Below are positions 9,901 through 40,535 of a stretch of 64,000 bases of DNA, piece after piece. The first letter of the stretch is position 1. The number at the start of each line of letters is the position of its first letter. The DNA is from Flavobacteriales bacterium (GTDB lineage: Bacteria > Bacteroidota > Bacteroidia > UBA10329). Location: the NCBI GenBank assembly GCA_044356305.1, contig JBIKWM010000002.1, positions 132,053 through 196,052 of the forward strand. Direction: 5' to 3'. The notes under the pieces were generated by a model, which did no database searches, was not told the origin of the DNA, and was given only the letters and a program-made list of their open reading frames with translations. Both the position numbers and the translations under genes were made by a program.

Positions 9901-12900
9901 ATCCAGCGGTTGTAATGGTTGCAGACTGAGCAGTTCCACCGCTCGGGCTCCAGTTATAGGTGTTGGCTGTGCTCGAGGTCAGAGTAACGCTGCCGCCTTG
10001 GCAAATTGCAATTGGACCGCCCGCTGTAACAGTAGGCACAGTCGGAGCAATGTCGTTGCTCAGGGTGAATGCCCCCGTGCCGGTCCCGAATCCTGTGACA
10101 TAAACAAAATACTGCGTTCCAGCTGTGGTGGCCGCTGTCACACTGCTCTGAAGGCCGCAGGCATCGTCATTACCGCCCACGCAGACCAAAGAGGTGCAAG
10201 GCCCTTCAAACACACCTATCTTACTATCGTAAGTAGTGCCAGTGCATGTGTTCAAGGTCACTGCGGCTCCTGTACCGAAGAACGAATACCATACCCCTGG
10301 AGCTGTATTGAGGGTCGTGGTACATGTGGCCGGGGCATCACTTGCATCTGCGCCCACTGTGGTCCCGTTCACTGGCGTTCCGCATGTAAGTGGCAATGCT
10401 CCACCGCACAGATCATTTACCGGAGCTGGGGTACAGGTCAACGTCAGTGTGAAGTCACCTGAATTGGTCCCGAATCCGGTCACGTAGATAAGGTACTCCT
10501 GTCCCACTATAGAAGTGAATGCCACACTGCTCTGAAGGCCGCAGGCGTCATCATTTCCAGCCACGCATCCCAAGGTGGCACAAGGACCGGTGAACACCCC
10601 GATCTTGGTGTCCCAAGCAGCACCCCCACAGGTTGATACTGTAACAGCATCGCCTGTTCCGGTGAATGTGTACCACACACCGGGTGACGTGTTCAATGTC
10701 GTGGTACATGTGGCCGGGGCATCTGCCGCATCAGCTCCGGTAGTTGTACCGTTTACCGATTGTCCACATGTAATTGCAATTGCCCCACCGCACAGGTCGT
10801 TGGGGATTGTATTCGATGTCACAGTCACGGGTTGGCAATCTTGGTCGGTACCACAGGTGTTTGTAACCGTGAGGCAAACTGTGTATGTCCCTGCCGCGGC
10901 ATAGGTATGTGCAGGGTTGGCCGTGTTGTCAGTGCCCCCATCACCAAAATCCCACGCATAGGTTGTTGGCCCACCGGTGCTGGCATCAGTGAAGGTGGCG
11001 TCCAAGTTATTGGTCACTGAAGTGAATGAAGCCGTTGGTGCTGTATTGACCGCTACAGTAGCTGTACCGCTTCCCGTGCCTGTACAAGTCGTTGCATCAG
11101 TAACGTTTGGTATTGTGTAAGTCCCAGCAGTGCTCACGGTCTGAGTGAACGGGCTTGTGGTGATGTTCAATGTCGAATTAGAAGTGCCATCATTCAGAGT
11201 AACTGTCCAAGGGCCTGTGCCGGTGAGGGTGATTGTCAGGTCGGTTGTCTGACCCTGACAGATGGTGGCCCCACCAGATAGTGTTGCGGTCGGGGCCGGG
11301 TTAACAGTGACTACAGTTGGAAGCGATGTAGCCTGGCAATTATTGACATCAACCGTTGTAACGGTATAAGAACCAGAAGTGGTCACCGTATTGGTCTGCC
11401 CTGTTCCACCTGTCGGGGCCCATGTGTAAGAAGCAGAAGTATTTGCCGAAAGGGTAACACTTCCACCCTGACAGAAGGTCGTTGGGCCTCCTGCAGTGAT
11501 GGTCGGGCCGATTGGCGTCATGTTATTGCTGAGTGTGAACGCTCCCGTTGCCGTACCGAAGCCGGTCACATACACGAAGTACTGGGTGCCGGCCGTGGTG
11601 TTTGCCGTCACACTGCTCTGTAGGCCCGAACCGCAACCTGTTGCATCATCATTTCCGGCTATACAGGTAAGTGCGGTGCACGGCCCTTGATAGACCCCTA
11701 TCTTACTGTCATATGTTGTGCCGGTGCAGGTGTTGAAGGTGACCGGGGCGCCCGTACCAAAGAAAGAGTACCACACACCACCTGCAGTATTGAGCGTTGT
11801 GGTACAAGGCGAGAGGGCGCCTGTCGTGGTGGAATTCACAGTGGTGCCGTTCACAGCCACTCCGCATGTGAGCGGAATTGCATTGCCACACAGGTCATTG
11901 GCAGGAGGGGGCGGTGCAACGCAGGTATTGCAGGTCACCGTGGTGGTGCGGCATGTGTTCTGGGTTCCGCACGCATTGCTAGTGCTGATATGCAGCCTAA
12001 CTGTTCCTGAGAATGTGGCCGTCCACGTGATTGGGGTGGTGCCAGAGGCAAGTACAGGCGTAGAGCTTGTCCCATCGGTGAGCACCAGCCAATCTGTTGC
12101 AATACTCGAGGTGAAGGTGTAGGTCTGACCGGCCACCACATTGTTTATCACAGCAAACTCACCAGCGAAATTGCAGGTTGAGATAGTGACTGTTGTCGGT
12201 GTGGTCGGTGCGTTGGCGGTACCGAATTGCGGAGTATGAATGCAGTCAACAGTCCCGACAACCGTCACATTCTGACAGATCTGGTTACTGCCGCAGCCAT
12301 TGGTGGCGGTCAGGCATACGTTATAAGTGCCTCCGGCCGCATAGGTGTATGTCGGGTTCTGAAGGGTCGAGGTGCCTCCGTCACCAAAGGTCCATGCCCA
12401 AGAGGTGGGAGTACCTGTGCTCGCATCCGTGAAGCTCGCGTCAAGTGCAGCCGTTGTCGATGTGAATGCCGCAACCGGGGTGCTGCCCGTGGTCACTGTG
12501 GCCGATCCGCTCGATGTGCCTGTGCAGCCGGTGGCATCGCTCACACTCGATACGGTGTACGTGCCGGCAGTGGTGACCGTGGTGGTGAATGGGCTGGTCA
12601 AAATCCCTGTGGTGGGTGTGCCGTTCAGCACAATACTCCACGGGGCCGTGCCTGTAAGGGCAACGCTCACCGTCACCCCCACTCCGTTGCACACCACACC
12701 ACCACCACTCACCGTGGCTGTTGGGGCCGTGTTCACTGTCACAGTGGTCGGGGCCGATGTCGCAGCGCAGTTGTTCAGATCATTCACTGCAACGGTGTAT
12801 GAACCGGCAGTGGTTATAGTAGCCGACTGAGCCGTGCCTCCACTTGGAGACCATGCATAGGTGTTGGCCGTGCTCGAAGTAAGAGTAACACTGCCGCCCT

Positions 12901-15828: not shown

Positions 15829-18261
15829 TTAACGGGAGATGGAGATCCGCTTAGATGCAATCAGACCATCGGCCCCAACAATATTCAGTAGGTAGGTGCC
15901 CGCAGCCAGATCTACATTCAGATTCTGGCGGATGTTGGCCCCGCCCTGAAGCTGATGCGCAATGAGTTTGCGACCACTAAGATCTGTAAGCTCTGCCTGA
16001 ACATTGCCCTGTGCACCTTTCACCTCTATCGTCAGCTCTCCAGCCGATGGGTTGGGGTAAACAGAAAGCGAAACAGCTTCAACTGAATTCAGGCCTGTCA
16101 CTATCACAGTTACCGATTGGCAGTCCTGGTCGCTTCCGCACGCGTTGGTGGCTGTGAGGCAAACGGTATAAGTGCCATTGGCGGTATAGGTATGCGATGG
16201 GCTGGTTGAAGTGCTCGACCCCCCATCACCGAAATCCCATGCATAGGAGGTGGCACCGCCAGTGCTCTGATTGGTGAAGTTAACTGTTGGGTCGGCATTC
16301 TGGAAAGTATAGCCAGCGGTCGGACTATTGCCTGTACCTATAGTAACCGAATTGCTGCGCTGACAGCCATTGCTATCTGTGACGGTCAATGTGTGGGTTC
16401 CAGATGACACAGAGATTGACTGTGTGGTCTGACCACCCGGTGACCACAGGTAACTGAATCCTGTTCCGGCAGGACCACCAATGGTCACGGGATTCCCGTT
16501 GCATGAAGTTGGGCTAGAAGGACTGATGGTGGCATCCGCTACGTACTGGTTGTCGGTGAGCTGAACAAAGAGGTCAGCAGCAGCACCTTGGTAGCCATCC
16601 ACTTGAACATAGTAGACCTGTCCAGCGGTGAGGCAGGTCACTGTCACTTCAGACGAGAACTCGGTTGTCACAAAATTCGGGTTGTCGTCATTGGCGCCCT
16701 CAATAACTGCACCACCACTGGTTATGGCGATGCAGCTTGCCGCACTGTAAACCGCTAGCTGTGTGTCATACGAACCATCGGTGCTGATGGTCACATTACC
16801 CGATGCTGGGGCGACAAATGTGAACCATACCGAATTGTCTACAATCAGGTCGCCACCACACCAGCCATCCTGCGACTCGCAGTTGTTTGTGGTGTTAGAG
16901 CCTTGTGGTGGTACAGGCTCGCCCGCCTCAGCCGTGGCCCCTGTGGTGACGAAAGGCCCATTGGCTCCGAAACTGAGCGGGATAGCCGAACAGACATCAT
17001 CATTGGTGGCCACGACAGCGCCATAAACGCATATATCAAAAGTGGTTGTGGCCGGAATTCCAATGTTGTAGTCATAGACACGCACAAAAATCGTAGCTCC
17101 CGGGGTTGCTCCGGTAAGTACTCCGGCCTCTGCTTCCCCAGACAATGTGTTGTCGAGACAACCCAACGAGGTTAACGCCCCACATGTTCCATCAAACACT
17201 TCCAGAACCGCATCGAACGAGGTTGAGCCGAGCACTTCAATGTTGGCAGCACCATTGGCAGGTACTACAAATGAGTACCATACATCGTCATCGGCAGTAC
17301 CTGCGCAGCCCGCCTGACTCTCAGTGGCTGTGGTCACATCGCCTGATACGGGCACACACGATGTGCCTACCGCAAGGCTCGTTGCACCGGCACACTCGTC
17401 ATTGCCTGTGGCACTCGGGTCGTATACGCATATATCGAAAGTTGTGGTCAGGGGTGCTCCAGTGTAGTAGTCGTACACGCGCAGATAGATGGTCTCACCT
17501 GGCACCCCTCCTGTAAAGGCAGCGGACTCCAACTCGCCTTCCAATGTACCGTCTACACATCCTACGGAAACCAGAGTGGCACAGTCGCCAGTGAAGGCTT
17601 CGACAACCGCATCAAAATTGGCAGAGCCTTGAACATCAATGGTCGCATTACCCGAAGGAGGAACAACAAAGCTGTACCACACATCGTCATCGGCCGTTCC
17701 AGAACAACCTGCCTGACTCTCTGTGGCATTGGTGACATCTCCACTGGTTGGGGTGCAATTGACCGTCACAGATAATGAAGTGGCAGTGGCACACTCATCA
17801 TTGGTGGCCATAGGAGTCTCGTATACGCACATCAGAAAATCTGTGGTGGCCGCCACATCAGCGTCAAAGTCATAAACTCTATAGAAGATTGTGGTACCAG
17901 CCACACCGGTCACTAATACTCCCTCAACTTCTCCATCAACTGTCGCATCAATACAACCAATAGATGTCAAGGCCCCACAAGACCCTTCAAAGAATTCGAG
18001 CACAGCGTCAAATGCCGTGTTACCAAGCACTTCCACTGTGGTAGAGCCGCTCGCTGGCATCACAAAACGGAACCAGATATCATCATTCGCTGTGCCTGCA
18101 CAACCCACTTGGGACTGGGTTGCCCCGGCCACATCGTAGGTGCCGGGCACACAGTCAGCGTTTACCGTCATCAAGATTGAACCTGAACAGTTGTCGTTCT
18201 GGGCCGAAGCGCCAAATGCCAAAAGGCTTAAGGAGGCAAGAAGCGTAAATCTATTTTTCAT
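15829..18261 (-). CDS. T9SS-secreted protein with four PPC (pre-peptidase C-terminal)-like domains, PKD domain and type-A sorting domain
   Basis: Start at MKNRFTLLASLSLLAFGASAQ (ATG 18259-18261). Four ~125-aa modules NDxC..A..L....C....GDV..ATESQAGC.GTADDDVWYSFVVP..G...I.V.G...FDAV.E.F.G.C..L.S.GC.D......E.......G...IY.RVYDY......TFDICVY. YAWDFGDGGSST PKD motif. CTD LSVYPNPSAGELTIEV...GTYLLNIV. Confidence 0.8.
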   Translation of the reverse strand: MKNRFTLLASLSLLAFGASAQNDNCSGSILMTVNADCVPGTYDVAGATQSQVGCAGTANDDIWFRFVMPASGSTTVEVLGNTAFDAVLEFFEGSCGALTSIGCIDATVDGEVEGVLVTGVAGTTIFYRVYDFDADVAATTDFLMCVYETPMATNDECATATSLSVTVNCTPTSGDVTNATESQAGCSGTADDDVWYSFVVPPSGNATIDVQGSANFDAVVEAFTGDCATLVSVGCVDGTLEGELESAAFTGGVPGETIYLRVYDYYTGAPLTTTFDICVYDPSATGNDECAGATSLAVGTSCVPVSGDVTTATESQAGCAGTADDDVWYSFVVPANGAANIEVLGSTSFDAVLEVFDGTCGALTSLGCLDNTLSGEAEAGVLTGATPGATIFVRVYDYNIGIPATTTFDICVYGAVVATNDDVCSAIPLSFGANGPFVTTGATAEAGEPVPPQGSNTTNNCESQDGWCGGDLIVDNSVWFTFVAPASGNVTISTDGSYDTQLAVYSAASCIAITSGGAVIEGANDDNPNFVTTEFSSEVTVTCLTAGQVYYVQVDGYQGAAADLFVQLTDNQYVADATISPSSPTSCNGNPVTIGGPAGTGFSYLWSPGGQTTQSISVSSGTHTLTVTDSNGCQRSNSVTIGTGNSPTAGYTFQNADPTVNFTNQSTGGATSYAWDFGDGGSSTSTSPSHTYTANGTYTVCLTATNACGSDQDCQSVTVIVTGLNSVEAVSLSVYPNPSAGELTIEVKGAQGNVQAELTDLSGRKLIAHQLQGGANIRQNLNVDLAAGTYLLNIVGADGLIASKRISISR

Positions 18262-18345
18262 GTATTGGTTTTTAATGGTAGTTGGGATGAAAAAGGGAAA
18301 ACCGCCCATCGGTCAGAGGGGCGGTTGATTTTGTTAAGAAACAGG

Positions 18346-20281: not shown

Positions 20282-21952
20282 TCAACGCAGAAGTGTCAGA
20301 AATCCCTGTCGGCTCTGGGTAGACCCATCCAGACCAGTCAAATTGAGCAGATAGTAGTATGTTCCCTGTTCCGCCTCGGCATTGCCATTTATTCGGCCGT
20401 CCCATCCCCAGTCACTCCCAGCGGTCAAAGTTCCTTCCATCTCATGCACCTTCAGCCCCCACCTGTTGTAGATCTTCATTGCGGCAGCAGTGTAACCATA
20501 GACGAAAGGTTCCCACAACCTGTTCATATCATCACCATTCGGGGTGAACACATTCGGCACTTCCAACATGGGCATGCCCTCAATATGAATGGATTGCATG
20601 GCCGTGTCGGCACATCCGAACTCATTGGTAACGATCAGGGTCACCACATAGGTGCCGCTGTCTGGAAAAACGTACTCGGCATCTTGACCATTAAGTATGG
20701 TGTCTCCCACCATCCACTGGTAGGTCGTGGCCTGGCCCTGGGCCGAAAACGAACCATTTAGGTAGGCGGCATCAATCAAAGCAGTGGCCGTGGGCACCGG
20801 ATTCACCGTGACTGACTGTGTCACGGTGTCTGTGCAGCCATCGGCCGTTATGAGCAATAGCGCTGCATCGTATTCACCAGCTTCGGCAAATAAATGGAAA
20901 TGGTCAATGGTGGAGGCCGTGGACCCATCACCATGATCCCAAGAATAGGTGGTCCCCTGTCCGAGAGCATTGCCCGTGAAGTCAAATGCTGTGGTATCGC
21001 CCGCACAGACCGGCCCGGTATTAAAGGCAGCGGTCGGCAGCGGGTCTATCACCACATCAAAACTGTCGGTGGCCGTGCACCCTGCCATGTCTGTTATGGT
21101 CTGAACTATGGTGTAGGTGCCAGGGGCGGCATAGGTCACATCCCCAGGGTCAATCTGGTCGGAGGTCTGGCCGTTGCCCAGATCCCAGTTCACTGCCGTC
21201 ACAGCTCCCAGAGCGCTATAGGACGCATCTGCAATGTTGATGGCCTCGCCAAGGCACACCTCATCATCGCTCAATGTGGCATCGGGCAGCATGGCCAGGC
21301 AAAACCTGTGCTCGTTGTTCAAACCGCCAGTACTGGCCGTGAATCCCCAATAGACCTCAGGATTGCCCGAAAAAAGGTCATTGACAATATCTGTGTTGAG
21401 TTCAACCCTCAGGTCGCTATCCATGTAGACGGAGAATGTGTTCGTGCCGGGCGCCCAGACCACGCGCATGAGATGTTCAGCCGCATCTTCAATATTGCCT
21501 CCGCTGGCAAGGGCTGTGACAGGCCCCATCAGGTTATTGGCCGTGCCATGGTCCACCACCCCATTGCTCATCAGTGCAATGTGGTCATAGACAGGGTCCC
21601 ATCCGTTCTGATAGGTGTCGACCTCCACGGCCAGAGACGGACTGATGCCCTCATAGCCCAGCCCACCACCTGTGCTGCCGATGCTGGTGCTTATAGGTTG
21701 CAACATGAATGCGATGCCATCGGCCCCGCCATCATTGGCCCCCAGGTACACATTGAATGTGAAATCAAAAGGGTCGGTCAGGTCTATCAGGTTCTCGTTC
21801 CAGACCGAGCCCCCCTGAGTGTTGATGGCCTGGGTGAGTCGGTAACAGTTGCATGAGAGCTGCACGGCATTCCCGTTCACAACGTATTGGGCCGTGCCTA
21901 TCAACGGAAGGGAAGAGAGGAGGACAAGCAGGAGTCTTTGCATATCATTCAC
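20282..21952 (-). CDS. T9SS type-B cargo: L-type (legume-like) lectin domain + PKD domains + gliding-motility-associated C-terminal domain
   Basis: Signal peptide. N-terminal lectin-like beta-sandwich (GGADGIAFMLQP..., VYWGFTASTGGLNNEHRFC). C-terminal VPNVFTPNGDDMNRLWEPF...GTYYYLL type-B CTD. Confidence 0.7.
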   Translation of the reverse strand: MNDMQRLLLVLLSSLPLIGTAQYVVNGNAVQLSCNCYRLTQAINTQGGSVWNENLIDLTDPFDFTFNVYLGANDGGADGIAFMLQPISTSIGSTGGGLGYEGISPSLAVEVDTYQNGWDPVYDHIALMSNGVVDHGTANNLMGPVTALASGGNIEDAAEHLMRVVWAPGTNTFSVYMDSDLRVELNTDIVNDLFSGNPEVYWGFTASTGGLNNEHRFCLAMLPDATLSDDEVCLGEAINIADASYSALGAVTAVNWDLGNGQTSDQIDPGDVTYAAPGTYTIVQTITDMAGCTATDSFDVVIDPLPTAAFNTGPVCAGDTTAFDFTGNALGQGTTYSWDHGDGSTASTIDHFHLFAEAGEYDAALLLITADGCTDTVTQSVTVNPVPTATALIDAAYLNGSFSAQGQATTYQWMVGDTILNGQDAEYVFPDSGTYVVTLIVTNEFGCADTAMQSIHIEGMPMLEVPNVFTPNGDDMNRLWEPFVYGYTAAAMKIYNRWGLKVHEMEGTLTAGSDWGWDGRINGNAEAEQGTYYYLLNLTGLDGSTQSRQGFLTLLR

Positions 21953-31940: not shown

Positions 31941-32206
31941 CCCCGACTGCGCAAATCGTACCCGACAAAACTATGAGGTATATGTTAAGCAGATCTCCCA
32001 CCGCCATTCCTCTAAGCGAACAGCCCATGGAATATCCGCACTGATTCTGAAATGACAGAAGCCGCTGTATCGATTGCCTTTATCCATGACCACCGCACTT
32101 GCGCGGTCTGCATCTCTTATGAAGTCACAGAGACTTCGAGCGTCATGTTCCGCACGGGTTATCCCGTGGAACGCATGAGCGAACGGGGGTTTATTAACCC
32201 ATTGCC

Positions 32207-33388
32207 CTAATTTTTTAGTAACCGGCTCCTTACCACCGAACCATCTCTCAATTTGACCGAAACAACATATACCCCCGAGTACAGGTGCTCAACATGGATT
32301 GTACTCTTCAAACCACTCACCTTCTGAACAGCCACCACTTTGCCCAATTGGTCTTGGATGGTGACATGTTCTATTTCAGAATTTGAGCCTGTAACATTGA
32401 ACTGTACTTGATCATTTGCTGGGTTTGGATAAAGTTCAAGGGTGTATTCCTCCGATTCTCGAATGCCGATGCTATTATCCTCACGCAATTCAACGGCATC
32501 GATGAAGTAAGAACTTGCTTCCCAACTATTGATAAGGGGTGGGTTGGAACTGACACGTTGAAAACTCAGTTCATCCTCTGAGCGGAAAACACCAATGGTC
32601 ATGAACTTCTCGCCACCATGAGCAATAAATTGCCCACTGATCTCAACCCAATTCACCCTGTCCTCCAACAAAAAACTATCCGGGCTCTCCACCTGTGGTT
32701 TGGCCACAATAAAACTATCAATAGGAAGAAAGCGGGTGGTATTCTCAGTAAACAGGGCCCCAATGTTGGCTACAGCGAAATTCACACTATCAGCAAGATT
32801 CACACGGCATTTGAACAGATAACCGTGGCCACTATTTAGGCTTTCAGGCAGTTCCATCCACAGGTATTCTCGGGCATTTGCCCAAAATGGGGTGTAGCAG
32901 GCAAAGTGGCCATAGGCTACCCCATCATATGCATCTTGATAACCATATTGATTGTTTGGCACCCCAAACTTTGGCCAATCCTCGTTGCTGCATGCATTGA
33001 AGTAATCAACTGACCCATAGGCTGAGCCCCAATACTCTGACACAGTTATCCAGCCTGGGCTAGAAGGGCATGCCGGGTCACCGTTTACATCCAATTCTAT
33101 CTCTTCAAAACTATAGTTCGGAATAATATTAGGCCCTAACTGGGCAATTGCGTTTTGTACATTAAACAATGTGACCCAAAGAAAGAAATATGTAGTGGTG
33201 GTTCTCCCCCTTTCGCTCGCGTCTCGCGAGTGAGAATTTCTCTGCCTCTGGCATTCTGAGAAAATTCTTTTCCATTGACGCGCCCGAGCGAGGCTGTGCG
33301 GTGTGCTGGCGCGTAGGGTCTTTCCCTCGCGCCTTTTATTCGGTGGTCTCCAGCCCACCCAGTGGCCAGTGTTCTCATGCCTCATCAT
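32207..33388 (-). CDS. Low-GC T9SS type-A cargo protein; 5' end runs into repeat unit, start codon uncertain (possible pseudogene)
   Basis: C-terminal ELYPNPANDQVQFNV...GVYVVSVKL sorting domain. Signal-peptide-like ...YFFLWVTLFNVQNAIAQ has no in-frame ATG/GTG. The ORF-track N-terminus MMRHENTGH... is repeat-derived. GC ~44% vs ~60% flanks. Confidence 0.55.
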   Translation of the reverse strand: MMRHENTGHWVGWRPPNKRREGKTLRASTPHSLARARQWKRIFSECQRQRNSHSRDASERGRTTTTYFFLWVTLFNVQNAIAQLGPNIIPNYSFEEIELDVNGDPACPSSPGWITVSEYWGSAYGSVDYFNACSNEDWPKFGVPNNQYGYQDAYDGVAYGHFACYTPFWANAREYLWMELPESLNSGHGYLFKCRVNLADSVNFAVANIGALFTENTTRFLPIDSFIVAKPQVESPDSFLLEDRVNWVEISGQFIAHGGEKFMTIGVFRSEDELSFQRVSSNPPLINSWEASSYFIDAVELREDNSIGIRESEEYTLELYPNPANDQVQFNVTGSNSEIEHVTIQDQLGKVVAVQKVSGLKSTIHVEHLYSGVYVVSVKLRDGSVVRSRLLKN

Positions 33389-33470
33389 CAGTTCCGTTCA
33401 CCAAAGGTCAACAATTATCTGAGTCACACACCATTCCGGCTCATCCAGATCCTTCCATTACGACCCCCTC
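33205..33470. repeat. Tandem repeat unit A copy 1 (~265 bp, hairpin-rich)
   Basis: ccccct-ttcgctcgcgtctcgcgagtgagaatttctctgcctctggcattctga...cattacgaccccctcc. ~90% identical to copies 2 and 3. Confidence 0.85.
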
Positions 33471-33736
33471 CCCCCCCTTCGCTCGCGTCTCGCGAGTGAG
33501 AATTTCTCTGCCTCTGGCATTCTGAAAAAATTCTTTTCCATTGGCGCGCCCGAGCGAGGCTGTGCGGTGTGCTGGCGCGTAGGGTCCTTCCCTCGCGCCA
33601 TTTATTCGGTGGGCTCCAGCCCACCCGGTGGCCAGTGTTCTCATGCCTGCTCATCATTCCGATTCACCAAAGGTCAACAATTATCTGATTCACACACCAT
33701 TCCAGCTCATCCAGATCCTTCCATTACGACCCCCTC
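33471..33736. repeat. Tandem repeat unit A copy 2
   Basis: Directly abuts copy 1 head-to-tail. Same internal palindromes (ctcgcgag, gagaatttctc, ggtgggctccagcccacc). Confidence 0.85.
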
Positions 33737-33900
33737 CTCACAAACAGCCAACAGCCATCTGTAAATCTGTACTCATCCATAATCCACATCAGCCTTAACA
33801 CCCGGTACCTTCCACCACACCCCTCCTCGCAAATAGCCATCAATCATTTGTATATCCGTACTCATCTGTAATTCGCATCAGCCCCTAACAGAAAACCCCG

Positions 33901-34167
33901 ACCCCCCCCTTCGCTCGCGTCTCGCGAGTGAGAATTTCTCTGCCTCTGGCATTCTGAAAAAATTCTTTTCCATTGGCGCGCCCGAGCGAGGCTGTGCGAT
34001 GTGCTGGCGCGTAGGGTCCTTCCCTCGCGCCATTTATTCGGTGGGCTCCTGCCCTCCCAGTGACCCGTGTTCTCATGCCTCATCATCAGTTCAATTCACC
34101 AAAGGTCAACAATTATCTGAGTCACACACCATTCCGGCTCATCCAGATCCTTCCATTACGACCCCCT
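33901..34167. repeat. Tandem repeat unit A copy 3
   Basis: Separated from copy 2 by a 164-bp spacer made of sub-repeat B. Confidence 0.85.
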
Positions 34168-34480
34168 CCTCGCAAATAGCCATCAATCATTTGTATATCC
34201 GTACTCATCTGTAATTCGCATCAGCCCCTAACAGAAAACCCCGACCATACCGGCCGGGGCCTTCCCTTTCACTCTCACCCTCACTTTCACTCTCACCCTA
34301 CCAAATGGCCAACAGCCAACGGCTATCAACCATTTGTATATCCGTACTCATCTGTAATTCGCATCAGCCCTAAACAGAAAACCCTCACCACACCGGCCAG
34401 GGCCTTCCCTTTCACTCTCACCCTCACTTTCACTCTAACAAATGGCCAACAGCCAACGGCTATCAACCATCTGTGTCTCC
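34168..34480. repeat. Mosaic of sub-repeats B/C (70-90 bp units)
   Basis: tcgcaaatagccatcaatcatttgtatatccgtactcatctgtaattcgcatcagcccctaacagaaaaccccgacc occurs at 33825 and 34159. ggccttccctttcactctcaccctcactttcactct...aaatggccaacagccaacggctatcaaccat occurs at 34258 and 34401. Confidence 0.8.
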
Positions 34481-34637
34481 GCCAACCCCACAAATCCCTG
34501 CCCCATCACCATAGGGCAACGGGTATTTGACGGGCCTCGGGCCATCAAAACCAGCATTATCCTCCTTTTTGGTAGCCCCTCTTCACAGAAAACTGTCGGA
34601 GGGCACCAGATTGCTGAAAGCCGCGCCATCACTGCTT

Positions 34638-34770
34638 TCGTACGATCCATAATTGCTATCGCACGATCCATAATTGCTGTCGCACGTCTCATAATTGCTG
34701 TCGTACGATCCATGATCGCTGTCGTACGTATCGCACATTGCTGTCGCTTGCTTCCCGAATGCTGTCGTTC
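34638..34770. repeat. Six degenerate 21-bp direct repeats (iteron-like) upstream of the sensor-phosphatase gene
   Basis: cgtacgatccataattgctat / cgcacgatccataattgctgt / cgcacgtctcataattgctgt / cgtacgatccatgatcgctgt / cgtacgtatcgcacattgctgt ... spaced 21 bp, ~70-200 bp upstream of 34839. Confidence 0.7.
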
Positions 34771-34838
34771 TCCGCATCTCCCCTGACACTCTACTCCGCA
34801 CAATCATTGACTCTCGCCCCGGCCCCGGCCTACATCGC

Positions 34839-37800
34839 ATGCAGCGCGTGGCGCAGCCCAAGGAGACCCATAACCTAAAGCGCAGCGGTGCCGTATCAGC
34901 GCGCTGCCCTGACCAGGCCCTCTTCATCCGCGCCTTGCGAAACCTACACGGCATAGCGGCCCTTGTGGCCGCCCTTCTGCTGGCCCCATCGGTCACCGCA
35001 CAGACATACGACATCCGCACCTTCGGCATTGACGAGGGTCTGCCGCAGGCCGAGGTCAACCACATGATCCAAGACAGCCGCGGCCACCTCGTAGTGGCCA
35101 CCAACGGGGGCGGTGCGGCCCTCTTTGACGGGTCAGGGTTTGCCGTGATAGGAATGGCCGAAGGACTGCCTGACGTCAAGGTGACCCACGTGGCCGCAGG
35201 CCCTGACGGCTCCCTTTGGCTTGCACACCCGGGGCACGGCCTGAGCAGGGGTACCGGCCAGGCCCCGCTCAGCTTCAGTGCTCTGGCCGGCCTTCCGAGC
35301 CAACAGGTGAACACCCTACTGGCCGATGGCGACAGCGTGCTCTGGGCCGGAACCTTTGGTGGGCTGTGCGCTGTGCGCGGCAAGGACCTGCGCCTACTGA
35401 CCAAGGCCGATGGTCTTCCGTCTGACGACATACGCGCCATATGCCGCGACCGGGCGGGTGCGCTCTGGGTGGGCACTTACGGGGGCGGTGTGGCCCGCCT
35501 CGACAACGGCACGTTCGTGCCCTTCGGCATCGAGGCCGGACTCACTGACGGCTTCATCTCCGATCTGTTCCTGGCCCGTGACGGCCGCATGCTGGTGGCC
35601 ACTGCCTCGGGCGTGCTGGTGTGGGACGGCCAATCGTTCGCACCCCTGCGCAATGCAGGGGCCGTGCGTGTCAATGCCATGGCCGAGGATGCACAGGGCA
35701 ACATCTGGCTCGCCACCCCCGAAGGGGCCCTCATGGTGGGCGACCTGGGCCGCGAACTGCTCTCTGACCGCAACGGACTGCCCCACCCCGAGGTGCTCAG
35801 CATCTGTATAGACCGCGAACAGAACATCTGGTTCGGCACGCGCAAGGGCCTGGCCCGGCTCGCACACAGGGCCATGGCCCACTTTGCCCCGCAGGGCCGC
35901 CCCGCCCTCGAGCCGAGCGCCTTTGGCCGGTTGCCCGATGGCACGCTGGTGCTCACCGACCGCACTGGCGGGGCGCTGCGTATTGACGGCAATGCATTTA
36001 TTCCCATTGTCAACGATGCCGATGTGGCCAGCCACCCGTTCAGCAGCCTCGCCACCGGGGCCGATGGCAGGCTATGGCTGGGCACCTCCGATTTCGGTGG
36101 TCTCTTCAGCATCAGCGATGGCAAGGTGAGCATCTATTCTGATGAGCCCGGGCTGATGGACAACAGCATCTCGGCCCTGGTCACTGGGGCCGACAGCCGC
36201 CTCATCATCGGTACCCCGGGCGGACTGAGCTATTTCGATGGCGACCGGTTTGTGCCCGGCCCGTCCGATCTGGGCCACATCACCGCCCTCACTCCCACCG
36301 TGGGGTCCGATGTGCTTGTAGGGACACTTTCGGGGGCCGTTCTGCACCTGCATGCCGACCGCGCAGACACGGTACACAGCGCCAAGGTGCCCATCACGGC
36401 CCTGGTGGCCATGCCCGATGGGCGCAAGGCCATAGGCACCGATGGCGAGGGCGTGGTGGTAATTGGCAAAGAGAGCCGTTTCGCAGTGACCGAGGCCGAT
36501 GGCCTCACCTCGCGGTTTGTGCGCAGCCTTGTGTGGGACGGCCGCCACCTGTGGGCAGGCACGGCCAAAGGCGTGTCGCGGCTTCTCCTCGGTGCCGATT
36601 CGGCCCAAGTGCTCGCCATCACCCAGGCGCACGGATTCAGCGGCAGCGAGTGTCTGCCGGGCGCACTGATGACCGATGGCGATATGCTGTGGGTGGGCAC
36701 CATCAAGGGCGTCACACGCATCAACAAATCGCTGGTCGGGCGCGATACCGTCCAGCCTGTGGTGTTCCTCACATCGGTTCAGCTATTGCTGCAGGAGGTG
36801 AACAGCGGGGCCGGCACCTCCGCCCTACCCCACAGCCTCGACCTCGGCCACGATGACAACCACCTGCGATTCAGTTTCAAGGCCATCTCCCTTACCAATC
36901 CGGAGCTTATCACCTATCGTTGGCGACTGGTGGGGTATGATGTCGAATGGAACGAGGGCAGCAGCGGGGTGGCCAATTATCCGAACCTGCCTCACGGAGA
37001 GTATGTGTTTGAAGTGGTGGCCTGCAACAGCGATGGCGTGTGTACCGAGGCTCCGGTGCAATTCAGCTTCCGCATCCGCCCTCCCTTCTGGAAAACGGTC
37101 TGGTTCTATGTCGTTGTGGCCTTTGCCGTCATGACCACCGTGGTGCTGTGGGTGCGCTGGCGCGAGCGCAGGCTGCTGGCCCTCAACCGCGAACTGGAGG
37201 ATAAGGTGGACCTGCGCACCCGCGAGCTGAAGGAACAGCGCGACCTGGTGGAGGAGAAGAACAGGCACATCACCGAAGGGATAGAGTATGCCCGCAACAT
37301 CCAGATGGCCATTCTGCCCTCGGCTTCCGAGCTCGATAGGGCGTTCAGTGAACATTTCGTGATCTACATGCCCAAAGACACCGTGGGGGGCGACTTCTAT
37401 TGGGCCTATACCAGCGGCACGGTCACATGGGCCGTGGCAGCCGACTGCACCGGACATGGTGTGGCAGGGGCATTCATGAGCATGATAGGCAGCGACCTGC
37501 TCAACCAGCTCATCATTGAGCAGGGGGCCACATCGCCTGCTGCGGTGCTGCGAGAGCTCGACCGCGGCATCAAACTGGCCTTTGCCCAGAGCGCCAAGGA
37601 GTTTGAGAACGATCAGGGCATGGACGTGGCCATGGTGCGCCTTGACCGCGCCTCCCGACACATCACATTTGCAGGGGCCATGCGGCCATTGCTGGTGGTG
37701 GGCCAAGAGGTGAACGAGACCGAGGGCGACCGGCACACCATCTCCAGTGCCGAACATGGGCCGGTCGCCTTCACCGACCGCTCCATCACTCTGGCCGAAG

Positions 37801-38015
37801 GCGAGACCGTTTATATCTATTCCGATGGGCTCTGCGACCAGTTCGGTGGGCCAAGGGGTAAGAAATTCGGGTCGAAACAGCTGCGCGAGCTGATCGCTGC
37901 CATGAACGGACAGCCCCTTGCGGCACAGCACGATGCCCTGCTCAGCGCCATCACCGCATGGAAAGGCCAAGAGCCTCAACAGGACGACATCATGATCCTC
38001 GCATTCAGACCTTGA
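34839..38015 (+). CDS. Membrane sensor: periplasmic two-component-regulator beta-propeller + Y_Y_Y domain, TM helix, cytoplasmic PP2C/SpoIIE serine phosphatase
   Basis: Repeated propeller blades (WFGT.KGL, LWVGTYGGGVARLD etc.). TM VWFYVVVAFAVMTTVVLWV. Coiled coil. SpoIIE core VGGDFYWAYT...AVAADCTGHGVAGAFMSMIG...DGLCDQFGG...QDDIMILAFR. Confidence 0.8.
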   Translation: MQRVAQPKETHNLKRSGAVSARCPDQALFIRALRNLHGIAALVAALLLAPSVTAQTYDIRTFGIDEGLPQAEVNHMIQDSRGHLVVATNGGGAALFDGSGFAVIGMAEGLPDVKVTHVAAGPDGSLWLAHPGHGLSRGTGQAPLSFSALAGLPSQQVNTLLADGDSVLWAGTFGGLCAVRGKDLRLLTKADGLPSDDIRAICRDRAGALWVGTYGGGVARLDNGTFVPFGIEAGLTDGFISDLFLARDGRMLVATASGVLVWDGQSFAPLRNAGAVRVNAMAEDAQGNIWLATPEGALMVGDLGRELLSDRNGLPHPEVLSICIDREQNIWFGTRKGLARLAHRAMAHFAPQGRPALEPSAFGRLPDGTLVLTDRTGGALRIDGNAFIPIVNDADVASHPFSSLATGADGRLWLGTSDFGGLFSISDGKVSIYSDEPGLMDNSISALVTGADSRLIIGTPGGLSYFDGDRFVPGPSDLGHITALTPTVGSDVLVGTLSGAVLHLHADRADTVHSAKVPITALVAMPDGRKAIGTDGEGVVVIGKESRFAVTEADGLTSRFVRSLVWDGRHLWAGTAKGVSRLLLGADSAQVLAITQAHGFSGSECLPGALMTDGDMLWVGTIKGVTRINKSLVGRDTVQPVVFLTSVQLLLQEVNSGAGTSALPHSLDLGHDDNHLRFSFKAISLTNPELITYRWRLVGYDVEWNEGSSGVANYPNLPHGEYVFEVVACNSDGVCTEAPVQFSFRIRPPFWKTVWFYVVVAFAVMTTVVLWVRWRERRLLALNRELEDKVDLRTRELKEQRDLVEEKNRHITEGIEYARNIQMAILPSASELDRAFSEHFVIYMPKDTVGGDFYWAYTSGTVTWAVAADCTGHGVAGAFMSMIGSDLLNQLIIEQGATSPAAVLRELDRGIKLAFAQSAKEFENDQGMDVAMVRLDRASRHITFAGAMRPLLVVGQEVNETEGDRHTISSAEHGPVAFTDRSITLAEGETVYIYSDGLCDQFGGPRGKKFGSKQLRELIAAMNGQPLAAQHDALLSAITAWKGQEPQQDDIMILAFRP

Positions 38016-38040
38016 AAAGCCGCATTACTTTCAGGCCCGC

Positions 38041-40404
38041 ATGTTCCGCCCGCTCATACTGCTCCTCTCTTTCACCGCCCTGATCGGTCAGGCATGGGCG
38101 CAGCAGGCCGAGATTGACCGGCTCAACGACCGCCTGCGGGCCGAGCTTGCCCCCAAGGGTACCAAGGCCGACACGGCCAGGGCTGAGGTGATGGTGCAAC
38201 TGGCCGAGCTCTACGTGAAGGTGGACCCCGACCGCGCACTTGACCTGTGTAAGGATGCGCTCGGTATAAGTATCCGCCACGCCAACAACCGCCTTGTGTC
38301 GCGCATCTACAACTGCACGGGCACCGTTAACCGCATCAAGGGCGACTATGAGAAGGCGATCCAGTTTCACGAACGCGCACTTGAGACTGACCGGAAGTCC
38401 GCTGACCGAATGGGCATCGCCCTGTCGCTCAACAACCTTGGCAACGCCTATCTGGGACAGGGCCGACTGAATGAGGCCAGGCAGCGCTATGCCGAATCGT
38501 TGGCCATCAGGCAGGATCTGGGCGATCAGGCTCCTATTGCCGCATCGCTCAATAACCTTGGAATGGTATACCGCAACATGGGCGACCATGACAAGGCCCT
38601 TGTCTATTACCAGAATGCCCTTAGGATATTCCAACAGCAGAATGACCAGCTCGGCACGGCCAATGCGCTGAACAACATCGGCATCGTTCAGCGCAATCAG
38701 GGAAATCTTGACCGGGCCATGGAGAGTTTCCAATCGGCACTGAAGGTGTTCGAGAAGGAGTACAATAAGGTGGGAATGGCTTTCACCCTCAACAACATTG
38801 GCAACATATACCAGCAGCAGGGCAATCAGGGGCAGGCCCTGAGCCTGTATGACCAATCGTTGAAGCTCAGTGAGGAGCTGGGCGACCGCGCCTCGGCTGC
38901 GGGCAAGTACAACAACATGGGGGCCGTTTATCACGACAAGGGCGATATGAGTTCGGCCCTCGATATGACCCAACGGGCTCTGCGCATACAACGGGAGCTG
39001 GGCGACCAGAGCGGTCAGGCCAACACGCTTAACAATCTGGGGGCCTATTACCGCGAACAGGGCGATGCCGACCGCGCGCTGGAGAGTTTCCTTGAGGCAG
39101 AGCGCATACAGAGGCGCACAGGCGACAACAACTACACCGTGGAGACCCTCACTTCCATTGGCGAACTGTATAGCAAGAAGGGCGAAGGCGGCAAGGGCCT
39201 CCGCTACCTCGAAGGGGCCATGGAGGCTGCCAAAGAGAAGCGGTCAGGACAAGAGCTGCAGCGTGTATACACCGCCATGAGCGAGGCCTATGCGCAGGCA
39301 GGCGACTTTGAACGCAGCTATAGGTACCAAAAACTCAATGCCAATCTCAAAGACTCGCTCGAAAGGACAGTGAATGTGCGCCAATTGGCAGAGATGCAGG
39401 CCAAATTTGAGACCGAGCGCAAACAGCGCGAGATAGACCAGCTGAACCGCGACCGCGAGGTGAAGGACCTTGTCATGGGCCGCCAGCGCATGGTGCGTAA
39501 CCTGATGATCGTGTTGGCGGTGCTGATAATGGCGCTGGCCGTGGTGCTGTTTCAGCGCTACAGGGCCAAGCAGCGGGCCAATGAGGAACTGGGGCGGAAA
39601 AACGAGGAGATAGAGGCCCAACGCTCCATCCTGAAAGAGAAGAACGAGGAGATAACCGATAGCATTGAGTACGCCAAGCGCATTCAGGATGCCATCCTGC
39701 CATCACTTGATGAGGTGACGCGGGTGCTGCCCCAGAGTTTCATCTATTTCCGCCCAAAGGCCATTGTTAGTGGCGATTTCTATTGGTTCAATGAGGTGAA
39801 CGGAACTGCTTTCCTCGCAGCCGTTGACTGTACCGGCCACGGGGTGCCCGGGGCTTTTATGAGTATGATAGGCAACGACCACCTCAACCAGGTGGTTCTG
39901 GTAGAGGGGTGCAAACGCCCCGATGAGATCCTCAACCGCCTGCATGCCGAGGTGCAGCACACCCTGCGCCAGCGCCACGGCCTCACTGAGACCCACGTGG
40001 GCATGGACATTGCCCTTTGCGCCATTGACCTTGAGAGCGGACTTCTGCAATTTGCCGCTGCCAATAGGTATCTGATGCTTTTCCGTGGAGAGGAACTCAC
40101 CGAACTGAAGGGCGACCATCTCAATGTGGGCGGCATCATGCACGAGGATGTGCGCAACTATACACTCCACGAGCTTCAACTCAACCCGGGCGACTGCCTT
40201 TATATGTTCAGCGATGGAGTCACTGATCAGTTCGGTGGACCAGACGACCGCAAGTTCGGTTACCGCAGATTGCGCGAGATGCTGCGCGACATACGCCACC
40301 TGCCCATGCAGGATCAGCGCGCCACTGTTGAACGCGGTCTGCTCTCATGGATGGGCCAACGTGACCAGATTGATGATTTCGTACTGATCGGGGTGCGGGT
40401 GTGA
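38041..40404 (+). CDS. Membrane sensor: TPR-repeat periplasmic domain, TM helix, PP2C/SpoIIE serine phosphatase
   Basis: Signal peptide MFRPLILLLSFTALIGQAWAQ. ~9 TPRs (LNNLGNAYLGQGRLNEA...). TM LMIVLAVLIMALAVVLF. SpoIIE core SGDFYWFNEV...AAVDCTGHGVPGAFMSMIGN...DGVTDQFGG...DDFVLIGVRV. Confidence 0.8.
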   Translation: MFRPLILLLSFTALIGQAWAQQAEIDRLNDRLRAELAPKGTKADTARAEVMVQLAELYVKVDPDRALDLCKDALGISIRHANNRLVSRIYNCTGTVNRIKGDYEKAIQFHERALETDRKSADRMGIALSLNNLGNAYLGQGRLNEARQRYAESLAIRQDLGDQAPIAASLNNLGMVYRNMGDHDKALVYYQNALRIFQQQNDQLGTANALNNIGIVQRNQGNLDRAMESFQSALKVFEKEYNKVGMAFTLNNIGNIYQQQGNQGQALSLYDQSLKLSEELGDRASAAGKYNNMGAVYHDKGDMSSALDMTQRALRIQRELGDQSGQANTLNNLGAYYREQGDADRALESFLEAERIQRRTGDNNYTVETLTSIGELYSKKGEGGKGLRYLEGAMEAAKEKRSGQELQRVYTAMSEAYAQAGDFERSYRYQKLNANLKDSLERTVNVRQLAEMQAKFETERKQREIDQLNRDREVKDLVMGRQRMVRNLMIVLAVLIMALAVVLFQRYRAKQRANEELGRKNEEIEAQRSILKEKNEEITDSIEYAKRIQDAILPSLDEVTRVLPQSFIYFRPKAIVSGDFYWFNEVNGTAFLAAVDCTGHGVPGAFMSMIGNDHLNQVVLVEGCKRPDEILNRLHAEVQHTLRQRHGLTETHVGMDIALCAIDLESGLLQFAAANRYLMLFRGEELTELKGDHLNVGGIMHEDVRNYTLHELQLNPGDCLYMFSDGVTDQFGGPDDRKFGYRRLREMLRDIRHLPMQDQRATVERGLLSWMGQRDQIDDFVLIGVRV

Positions 40405-40461: not shown

Positions 40462-40535
40462 TGGAGGTCACGAGCGGATTTGAACCGCTGTACGAGGTTT
40501 TGCAGACCTCTGCCTAACCGCTCGGCCACGTGACC
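40462..40535 (-). tRNA. tRNA-Cys (anticodon GCA)
   Basis: Reverse complement GGTCACGTGGCCGAGCGGTTAGGCAGAGGTCTGCAAAACCTCGTACAGCGGTTCAAATCCGCTCGTGACCTCCA. 7-bp acceptor stem, D-arm GCCGAGCGGTTAGGC, anticodon loop CTGCAAA, T-arm GGTTCAAATCC, U73 discriminator, encoded CCA. Confidence 0.85.

What the first reader, a model, noticed from the sequence alone, without database searches (positions are those of the whole stretch)
33205..34167. Three ~265-bp hairpin-rich tandem units of unknown nature
Three copies (33205-33470, 33471-33736, 33901-34167) share ~90% identity. Copies 1 and 2 abut head-to-tail. Each unit carries several perfect palindromes (ctcgcgag; gagaa-t-ttctc; ggtgggct-cc-agcccacc; ggcgcg...cgcgcc), so it is predicted to fold strongly. 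The differences between copies include indels that break any common reading frame, so the arginine-rich ORFs the track finds on both strands (MMRHENTGH..., MCWRVGSFPRA...) are almost certainly not genes. The array sits between a low-GC cargo gene and two sensor-phosphatase genes. It could be a tandem set of structured non-coding RNA genes, a MITE/REP-like dispersed element caught in local amplification, or a recombination or phase-variation substrate. CRISPR, integron attC, DGR and IS explanations do not fit.
Basis: seen in the sequence. Interest (0 to 1): 0.75.

Follow-up and report, generated by a model that had tools for sequence, protein, structure and literature searches.

The report
Mosaic hairpin-rich intergenic repeat array
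The three 266-bp units are real, non-coding copies of the largest module of a small lineage-specific family of hairpin-rich intergenic repeats, comparable to the BOX, BIME and SPRITE repeats of other bacteria, that was amplified locally between two genes; it is a fairly ordinary kind of bacterial repeat rather than a new system.

Summary
There are three 266-bp units (33205-33470, 33471-33736, 33901-34167), about 95% identical, and the first two abut head to tail. They are part of a larger 1.3-kb mosaic array, A1-A2-B1-B'-A3-B'-C1-B''-C2. It fills the gap between a low-GC T9SS cargo gene (minus strand) and a SpoIIE sensor-phosphatase gene (plus strand).

The C modules are strong Rho-independent terminators on the minus strand. 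Independent metagenome assemblies reproduce the array. One of them has only two A units.

The family is not unique to this spot. At a second locus in related strains, next to a 309-aa gene and rhlE, there is an A copy 81-83% identical followed by B/C units. Other samples have there a 193-nt relative (A') that shares only a ~75-nt end module. Two decayed fragments also exist.

No reading frame shows synonymous bias. Two hairpins are kept through compensatory changes. There is no Rfam hit, no Bacteroidetes promoter consensus, no TIR or TSD, and no transposase, RT or integrase among 30 ORFs scanned plus flanking genes known from precomputed Pfam marks.

Best reading: a lineage-specific modular intergenic repeat family, amplified here by unequal recombination. 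It is a new member of a known kind, of modest interest.

The parts
33205..33470 (.). A1, a 266-bp A module. It abuts the 5' end of the T9SS cargo gene. The only in-frame ATG of that ORF (33388, minus strand) lies inside it.
33471..33736 (.). A2, head-to-tail with A1. A C8 tract lies at the junction (33470-33477).
33737..33819 (.). B1 module (~83 bp), about 80% identical to the other B modules.
33820..33903 (.). B' module (84 bp), 100% identical to 34163-34246. Its 3' end on the + strand (33890-33903) is half of the C-type terminator hairpin, cut off by A3.
33904..34162 (.). A3, the third A module (homology runs 33901-34168). It is flanked on both sides by identical B' modules. A C8 tract lies at 33902-33909.
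34163..34246 (.). Second copy of B'.
34233..34266 (-). Terminator hairpin at the B'/C1 junction. It has a 14-bp stem followed by UUUUCUGUU on the minus strand, dG -26.5 kcal/mol, z -4.3.
34247..34375 (.). C1 plus B'' modules, the 143-bp period B/C repeat.
34376..34409 (-). Terminator hairpin of C2, dG -23.1 kcal/mol, z -5.3.
34410..34460 (.). Remainder of C2, the end of the mosaic array.
32148..32188 (+). Decayed fragment resembling the 3' part of the A' element. It matches 30 of 41 positions, and 0 of 1000 shuffles score as well. It lies just 3' of the cargo gene's stop codon.
32207..33180 (-). T9SS-sorted cargo gene (Por_Secre_tail), GC about 47%. The signal-peptide h-region is present, but there is no start codon outside A1.

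Best explanation
The three units are copies of the largest module (A, 266 bp) of a lineage-specific, modular, hairpin-rich family of intergenic repeats in an uncultivated Bacteroidota chromosome. The family has at least three module types. A has a conserved ~75-nt end module followed by a variable hairpin-rich body. B is about 84 bp. C carries a strong Rho-independent terminator that reads on the minus strand. Modules occur in different combinations and copy numbers at different intergenic loci and in different strains. This is the pattern of the BOX, BIME and SPRITE repeats of other bacteria. At this locus the array grew by tandem duplication or unequal recombination of [B-A] blocks (inferred). 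The units do not encode protein (shown). Their hairpins are kept by selection or by the copying mechanism (weakly shown). Their likely effects are on neighbouring transcription (inferred): the C modules terminate or insulate, and the A hairpins could stabilise or block transcripts. As a side effect, A1 has replaced the start-codon region of the adjacent cargo gene. How new loci are seeded is unknown. It could be trans-mobilisation by an unlinked enzyme or ectopic recombination.
For: The repeats are real and reproduced in independent assemblies. Mosaic architecture: B and C repeats are interleaved, an 84-bp B' module that is 100% identical flanks A3, and there is a higher-order ~343-432-bp periodicity. 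Dispersal: L011 carries an A copy 81-83% identical, followed by B and 2.9 copies of a 109-bp B/C unit, next to an unrelated 309-aa gene. At the same gene in other samples, L013, L015 and L012 carry one C unit plus a 193-nt A' element. A' shares only the ~53-75-nt end module with A (nhmmer E of 4e-9 to 2e-8). Decayed fragments lie at window 32148-32188 and at L016 5736-5781. Non-coding: at most 6 of 19 changed codons are synonymous in any frame; the differences fall 11/8/6 over the three positions of an arbitrary codon register, with no clear excess at one position; differences among the local copies are nearly all non-synonymous; and one copy has a stop in the mini-ORF. Hairpin maintenance: the end hairpin is CTC[GCG]TCT[CGC]GAG in A and CTC[CGCA]TCAA[TGCG]GAG in A'; stem h1 has two double compensatory changes and one G-U in L011. 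C hairpins have dG of -23 to -26 kcal/mol and z of -4.3 to -5.3, with a U tract, and sit right after the 309-aa gene's stop in L011, L013 and L015. Short-read contigs break at the array edges, as expected for repeats. A copy-number difference (three versus two A units) and a mosaic proximal unit are seen in L010, L004 and L005.
Against: Only two clear loci and two weak fragments were recovered, and all come from a narrow group of closely related metagenome populations. The copy number in the genome is unknown. Within the 64-kb window there is no second array. Exact 20-22-mer scans of the GTDB species genomes and of the JGI contig collection found only chance hits, but those collections evidently lack the source samples. 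No TIR, TSD or partner transposase was found, so mobility is not shown. The second locus could have arisen by ectopic recombination. The hairpin GGTGGGCT..AGCCCACC is broken by uncompensated changes in A1 and in the A3 lineage. No expression data exist, so the regulatory effects are inference. The two-unit allele (L010) could be a short-read collapse.
Confidence: 0.55

Rival explanations
1. The A units are tandem genes for a structured, trans- or cis-acting non-coding RNA of about 190-270 nt, read on the + strand. The conserved ~75-nt module with its hairpin would be the functional core.
For: The + strand folds better than shuffles: z -3.76 for A2 and -2.7 for A'. There are compensatory changes in two stems, and the G-U pairs favour the + strand. 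The 53-nt core is conserved between otherwise unrelated A and A' bodies.
Against: There is no Rfam match even at E<=10. There is no Bacteroidetes TAnnTTTG promoter and no convincing sigma-70-type promoter. The A unit has no terminator at its + strand 3' end. The relation to neighbouring genes is inconsistent: upstream of a SpoIIE gene here, but 3' of rhlE after its terminator in L013. One hairpin decays without compensation. The body is swapped wholesale between A and A'.
Confidence: 0.12
2. The units are non-autonomous elements mobilised as single-stranded DNA hairpins by an unlinked Y1 transposase, either an IS200/IS605-derived PATE or a REPIN with a RAYT. The head-to-tail copies would result from site-specific insertion next to the C-run.
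For: Every A and A' left end starts with a C5-8 run followed within 3-5 nt by a subterminal hairpin. A' ends with a hairpin followed by G5. The hairpin is kept by structure rather than sequence. G-T wobbles are strand-specific. There are no TIRs or TSDs, as expected for this transposition mode.
Against: No Y1 transposase, TnpB or RAYT turned up among 30 ORFs scanned against Pfam, which cover roughly half the window, or in the precomputed Pfam marks for flanking genes; the genome outside the window is unavailable. The left and right hairpins are unrelated in sequence. A, unlike A', has no hairpin at its right end. The 84-bp identical B' flanks point to homologous recombination or duplication rather than transposition.
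Confidence: 0.12
3. The array is a recombination or phase-variation substrate that switches expression or the identity of the adjacent T9SS cargo gene. This would work through copy-number change, poly-C slippage, or cassette exchange between repeat-flanked cargo genes.
For: There are three A units in the window against two in L010. The proximal unit in L004, L005 and L010 is a mosaic of A2-like, A3-like and A1-like segments. C8 tracts lie at two junctions. The cargo gene is bracketed by family sequences (A1 at its 5' end, an A' fragment at its 3' end), has low GC, and has homologues in other contexts (L003, L016). Its only in-frame ATG lies in A1.
Against: The tract next to the gene is only G5/C5. 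No invertase or recombinase was found among the ORFs scanned. The differences between samples can be strain differences or short-read assembly chimeras. The same family at locus 2 sits between converging genes, where no such switch makes sense.
Confidence: 0.1
4. The units are protein-coding: small Arg-rich proteins, or a repeated N-terminal extension or leader of the cargo protein.
For: The same ORFs are open in all three copies, and A1's ORF is in frame with the cargo gene. NCBI's annotation calls the fused 393-aa product.
Against: No frame shows synonymous bias. Differences among copies are almost all non-synonymous. Three overlapping frames are open at once, which is a composition effect. 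No homologue was found among 5.8 billion clusters or 1.84 billion representatives other than translations of other repeat copies. One copy has a stop in the mini-ORF.
Confidence: 0.03

Closest known systems
BOX elements of Streptococcus pneumoniae and S. suis (boxA, a variable number of boxB, then boxC)
   Same: Both are composite intergenic repeats built from modules. An internal module is present in variable tandem number. Different end modules are combined with shared inner modules. Both have extensive predicted secondary structure, vary between strains, and sometimes modify adjacent genes (PMC3049150).
   Different: No sequence relationship is expected and none was tested (different phylum, GC 56% against AT-rich). 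The A module (266 bp) is much larger than the box modules. BOX ends pair with each other as TIRs, and A ends do not. Only a few copies are known here, against more than 100 for BOX.
[quoted passage not shown]
   Same: The C module is a repeated element whose core is a long GC-rich stem (14 bp) followed by a U-rich tract. It sits directly 3' of a gene (PMC3049150).
   Different: C occurs in tandem and is fused to B and A modules rather than standing as a solitary element. There is no sequence similarity.
REP/BIME mosaic elements of enterobacteria, and REPINs with RAYT transposases
   Same: Both are mosaics of palindromic units and other short motifs in extragenic DNA, often between converging genes, with copy-number variation and effects on termination and mRNA stability (established knowledge; also summarised in PMC3049150).
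   Different: REP units are 20-40-nt imperfect palindromes with a conserved 5' tetranucleotide, arranged in alternating orientation. Here the modules are 84-266 bp, all in one orientation, and no RAYT is known.
Bacterial MITEs, for example Correia elements and the P. gingivalis 'BrickBuilt' MITE with an internal minisatellite (PMC4596501)
   Same: Both are small, non-coding, structured and dispersed, and they can carry internal tandem repeats and affect neighbouring genes.
   Different: A has no terminal inverted repeats and no target-site duplications. It is not AT-rich. No partner IS is known.
Rickettsia palindromic elements (RPE)
   Same: Both are hairpin-forming repeats that can become part of an annotated ORF in frame. 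Here A1 is fused in frame to the cargo gene (established knowledge).
   Different: RPEs insert inside genes and are translated as internal segments. Here the repeat replaces the 5' end, and translation of the fusion is unproven.

Membership tests
MITE | Terminal inverted repeats | tested here: not met
   The ends of A are CCCCCCCTTCGCTCGCG... and ...CCATTACGACCCCCTCC, which are not complementary. A' has only C5/G5 termini and unrelated subterminal hairpins.
MITE | Target-site duplications flanking each copy | tested here: not met
   The flanks of A1, A3 and A' were read directly. No short direct duplication was found. A3 is flanked instead by an 84-bp identical B' module.
MITE | Many dispersed copies in one genome, and a partner IS with matching ends | not testable with these tools
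   Only the 64-kb window and short contigs of related strains could be read. Two loci and two fragments were found.
REP/BIME (REPIN) | Unit is a 20-40-nt imperfect palindrome with a conserved 5' tetranucleotide, often in inverted pairs | tested here: not met
   Modules are 84-266 bp, all in the same orientation, and hold several different hairpins.
REP/BIME (REPIN) | An associated RAYT (Y1 transposase) gene in the genome | not testable with these tools
   None was found among 30 ORFs scanned against Pfam or in the precomputed Pfam marks for flanking genes; some ORFs, including the 2747-aa one, were not checked. The rest of the genome is unavailable.
BOX-like modular repeat (by architecture, not homology) | Composite of distinct modules, with an internal module in variable tandem copy number between loci and strains | tested here: met
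   Window: A-A-B-B'-A-B'-C-B''-C. L011: A-B-(B/C)x2.9. L013/L015: A'-C.
BOX-like modular repeat (by architecture, not homology) | Sequence homology to boxA, boxB or boxC | not tested
   No BOX models were available. Homology is not expected across phyla.
Rho-independent terminator (C module) | GC-rich stem-loop immediately followed by a U tract, located 3' of a gene | tested here: met
   The stem is 14 bp, dG is -22.6 to -26.5 kcal/mol for the window and L011 copies (z -4.3 to -5.3; the L013 copy is weaker, dG -18.5, z -1.45), and UUUUCUGUU follows. It lies about 60 nt after the stop of the 309-aa gene in L011, L013 and L015. In the window no minus-strand gene lies upstream of it.
Known RNA families (Rfam 15) | Covariance-model match at or near the gathering score | tested here: not met
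   The only hit at gathering score is tRNA-Cys at 40462-40535. At E<=10 on 33000-34900 there are only two chance miRNA/snoRNA hits.
   Units abut without spacers. No cas, intI or RT gene was found among 30 window ORFs scanned, none of them adjacent to the array.
Protein-coding gene | Excess of synonymous change, or homologues in protein databases | tested here: not met
   The only hits are translations of other repeat copies (P0006, P0014).

The most novel reading that the evidence does not exclude
The A and A' elements could be genes of an undescribed structured RNA class in uncultivated Bacteroidota. On this reading, the conserved ~75-nt module (C-run, structure-conserved hairpin, invariant GAGTGAGAATTTC.CTGCCTCTGGCATTCTGAAAAA core) is a protein-binding scaffold and the swappable body carries specificity. 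Such an RNA might be a guide or partner for an unlinked mobile-element enzyme. That would explain both the dispersal and the tandem copies.
Probability: 0.08. Interest if true: 0.6.

Novelty: new member of a known kind. Interest (0 to 1): 0.28.

Why it matters
Modular hairpin repeats break short-read assemblies. Here both Logan contigs stop at the array edges. They also mislead gene callers. NCBI calls a 393-aa fusion that starts inside unit 1, JGI calls a 320-aa protein without a signal peptide, and small ORFs are called inside the repeats. Knowing that this is a repeat family with terminator modules improves annotation of these uncultivated Bacteroidota. It also flags a strain-variable hotspot around a T9SS cargo gene. 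If the family proved abundant and mobile, it would be one of the few BOX/BIME-type systems described in this phylum, though not a new principle.

Tried and rejected
(1) Rfam, at gathering score and at E<=10, gave nothing relevant.

(2) An exact 22-mer scan of the GTDB species genomes found one hit in a Planctomycetota MAG. It is only a 25-nt chance hairpin match.

(3) An exact 20-mer scan of the JGI metagenome contigs found three hits, all chance. In hindsight the chosen 20-mer is not conserved in the diverged copy L011, and the collection lacks the source samples, so this negative says little.

(4) Four viral-contig scans with motifs conserved between the diverged copies found nothing.

(5) blastn against plasmids and phages found no match.

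(6) Protein-space fishing with the ORF translations gave the following. The minus frame in register with the cargo gene gave no candidate. The + frame searched with phmmer found P0006, which led to locus 2. A search with P0006 returned only itself. The mini-ORF alignment returned only P0014, the 29-aa ORF of A'.

(7) A scan for Bacteroidetes promoters (TAnnTTTG) found none in the array. The sigma-70 scan gave two weak sites, no more than in shuffles.

(8) TIR and TSD inspection found none.

(9) The coding hypothesis is rejected.

(10) Assembly artefact is rejected for the units themselves, because independent assemblies reproduce them. It is not fully excluded for the exact copy number.

(11) Looking up the sample accession in the literature found nothing. 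The organism is inferred to be Bacteroidota only from T9SS/CHU_C/DUF4270-type genes.
Full report
**Observation**

The three units exist as described. TRF reports a 266-bp period with 2.0 copies, 95% matches and no indels at 33206-33737. The repeat finder and blastn add the third copy at about 33901-34168.

The listed palindromes are present. Unit 2 folds better than dinucleotide shuffles, more so on the + strand (z -3.76) than on the - strand (z -2.09). blastn of the units and a self-comparison of the whole window find no other copy in the 64 kb. The only other internal repeats are domain repeats inside a 2747-aa ORF.

**The units are part of a larger mosaic**

The whole 33205-34460 stretch is repetitive. 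On the + strand the order is A1, A2, B1 (83 bp), B' (84 bp), A3, B' again (100% identical to the first B'), C1, B'' and C2. Each of A2 and A3 is followed on the + strand by a B-type module, so the higher-order unit is a [B-A] block of about 343-432 bp.

The C modules contain a 14-bp GC-rich stem followed by UUUUCUGUU on the minus strand. Their dG is -23 to -26.5 kcal/mol and their z-scores are -4.3 to -5.3, so they are good Rho-independent terminators. At 33890-33903 only the 3' half of that hairpin remains, joined directly to the end of A3. The breakpoint of that duplication therefore lies in the hairpin loop. The + strand of the array is strongly C-rich, with GC skew of -0.25 to -0.33.

**Context**

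The array fills the gap between two diverging genes. One is a T9SS-sorted cargo gene on the minus strand (Por_Secre_tail, GC about 47%). The other is a Y_Y_Y/SpoIIE sensor phosphatase on the plus strand, followed by a TPR-SpoIIE gene.

Thirty ORFs, covering roughly half the window, were scanned against Pfam. Genes flanking the array are known instead from the precomputed Pfam marks on the contig look-ups. All identified products are ordinary chromosomal ones: fatty-acid synthesis, GlmS, YceG, cytochrome c maturation and other T9SS cargo proteins. No transposase, integrase, reverse transcriptase or cas gene turned up. The T9SS, CHU_C and DUF4270 genes point to Bacteroidota (inference).

Reading the minus strand, the cargo ORF has a signal-peptide h-region and cleavage site (..TTTTYFFLWVTLFNVQNAIAQ). 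It has no start codon between that region and the A1 boundary. The only in-frame ATG lies 73 codons upstream, inside A1. NCBI's annotation calls this 393-aa fusion. JGI calls a 320-aa product from an internal TTG that lacks the signal peptide. A1 has thus replaced the gene's start region.

**Independent assemblies**

Short-read contigs from SRR11638223 stop exactly at the array edges: L002 ends at 33241 and L001 starts at 34628. L017, from another JGI sample, reproduces A3 and everything downstream at 98.3% identity.

L010 spans the whole intergenic region but has two A units instead of three. The unit next to the gene, which is identical in L004, L005 and L010, is a mosaic of A2-like, A3-like and A1-like segments. 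This suggests a copy-number difference produced by unequal recombination. A de Bruijn-graph collapse cannot be excluded. L003, a 93.6% relative, has a different N-terminus for the cargo gene and another T9SS gene directly upstream, with no A unit.

**Dispersal**

DNA scans of the public collections were uninformative. Translating the + strand ORF and searching 1.84 billion representative proteins found P0006. This is an 84-aa 'protein' that is simply the translation of another copy. Its contig, L011, carries an A copy that is 81-83% identical over about 158 nt. It is followed by a B module and 2.9 copies of a 109-bp B/C unit, and it abuts the 3' end of an unrelated 309-aa gene.

In other samples the same gene (L013, L015, L012) is followed by one C unit and then a 193-nt element, A'. 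After A' come the terminator and 3' end of the converging rhlE helicase gene. A' shares only a ~53-75-nt end module with A (CCCCC, a hairpin, then GAGTGAGAATTTC.CTGCCTCTGGCATTCTGAAAAA...CCATTGG; nhmmer E of 4e-9 to 2e-8). The rest of A' is a different hairpin-rich sequence, with z of -2.7 and -3.2 on the two strands.

Two decayed fragments are also significant against shuffles. Window 32148-32188 matches 30 of 41 positions of the A' 3' part and lies just 3' of the cargo gene's stop. L016 5736-5781 matches 34 of 45 positions of the A middle, in another intergenic region. The A unit therefore belongs to a dispersed, diverging, modular family. It is not a unique local duplication.

**Coding or not**

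The copies align without frame-breaking gaps, and the same ORFs are open in all three. The conclusion still holds.

- Between A2 and the L011 copy (81% identity over 132 gap-free nt), no frame has more than 6 synonymous changes among 19 changed codons. The differences fall 11/8/6 over the three positions of an arbitrary codon register, with no clear excess at one position.
- Differences among the local copies are almost all non-synonymous.
- One copy has a stop in the mini-ORF.
- Protein searches return only translations of other repeat copies.

**Structure conservation**

Two stems show coordinated change. The end hairpin is CTC[GCG]-TCT-[CGC]GAG in A and CTC[CGCA]-TCAA-[TGCG]GAG in A'. Stem h1 (GGCGCG.AGGG/CCCT.CGCGCC) has two double compensatory changes and one G-C to G-U change in L011, and the G-U pair works only on the + strand.

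Against this, the most striking palindrome (GGTGGGCT..AGCCCACC) is perfect only in A2 and L011. It carries uncompensated mismatches in A1 and in the A3 lineage. Twelve of 29 variable columns among the seven close copies fall in the 50-column stretch around it. With so few independent sequences, this shows that hairpins matter at the DNA or RNA level. It is not proof of a functional RNA. There is no Rfam match, no Bacteroidetes TAnnTTTG promoter in the array, and no more sigma-70-like sites than in shuffles.

**Interpretation**

The best-supported reading (about 0.55) is a lineage-specific family of mosaic intergenic repeats, amplified here by tandem duplication or unequal recombination of [B-A] blocks. 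The C modules act as terminators or insulators. They sit right after the stop of the 309-aa gene at locus 2. The A modules are structured, non-coding passengers that can alter neighbouring genes, as A1 has done to the cargo gene's start.

In architecture this is what BOX elements are in streptococci (boxA, a variable number of boxB, boxC, and alternative end modules in S. suis). It also matches SPRITE (a repeated terminator-like element) and BIMEs in enterobacteria (PMC3049150). It is not a classical MITE, because TIRs and TSDs were looked for and not found. It is not REP-like in unit size or orientation. One candidate route is as ssDNA hairpins by a Y1 transposase, which the C-run plus subterminal-hairpin ends would fit.

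The rival readings remain possible at lower probability: tandem ncRNA genes (about 0.12), a Y1-mobilised element (about 0.12), a phase-variation or cassette-exchange substrate for the cargo gene (about 0.10), and coding (about 0.03).

**Verdict**

This is a real feature, correctly spotted. It is a new member of a known kind. Interest is modest (0.28). It matters mainly for annotation and assembly, and as a possible strain-variable hotspot. The small residual chance is that the conserved end module marks an undescribed RNA.

Noticed in passing
window 34626-34746: A 21-bp tandem repeat (CCATAATTGCTGTCGTACGAT, 5.7 copies) lies 95-215 nt upstream of the SpoIIE sensor-phosphatase start at 34839. 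The related strain in L017 has 6.7 copies. The repeat has an iteron-like or operator-like periodicity of two helical turns. Spurious heptad-repeat ORFs are called over it on both strands.
   Followed up: partly
window 32207-33388 (minus strand): The T9SS cargo gene has no start codon of its own. Its signal-peptide h-region is preceded directly by repeat unit A1, which holds the only in-frame ATG. NCBI annotates a 393-aa fusion and JGI a 320-aa product without a signal peptide. It may be a 5'-truncated pseudogene.
   Followed up: partly
window 32148-32188; L002-L005 equivalents: A decayed fragment of the A'-type element lies just 3' of the cargo gene's stop, so the low-GC cargo gene is bracketed by repeat-family sequences. 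Homologues of the gene sit in different contexts: L003 has another T9SS gene upstream, and L016 sits next to a DUF2281-PIN toxin-antitoxin pair. This suggests cassette-like exchange.
   Followed up: partly
window 33470-33477 and 33902-33909: C8 homopolymer tracts lie at the A1/A2 and B'/A3 junctions. They are potential slipped-strand sites. The tract next to the cargo gene is only C5.
   Followed up: no
window 6962-15205 (minus strand): A 2747-aa ORF has many internal ~65-72% identical repeats of roughly 150-1200 nt, probably a giant repetitive surface or T9SS cargo protein. The neighbouring ORFs at 15829-18309 and 20282-21952 are also T9SS cargo proteins (GBD_T9SS_assoc/PKD/Por_Secre_tail, and lectin/PKD/CHU_C).
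   Followed up: no
window 34839-40404; L012; L018: There are several paralogous TPR- or Y_Y_Y-SpoIIE (RsbU-like) phosphatase genes in tandem: two here and three in L018. Both repeat-bearing loci have such a gene nearby. This may be a coincidence in a genome rich in these genes.
   Followed up: no
L013 1387-1440 / L015 688-745: A bidirectional terminator (GGCCGTCTCTGCAATGGAGTCGGCC flanked by A and T tracts) lies between the A' element and the rhlE stop codon. A' therefore lies outside the helicase transcript.
   Followed up: no
window 40462-40535: tRNA-Cys (GCA) on the minus strand is the only Rfam or ARAGORN hit in the window. It is about 6 kb from the array, and no integrase was found near it.
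   Followed up: yes
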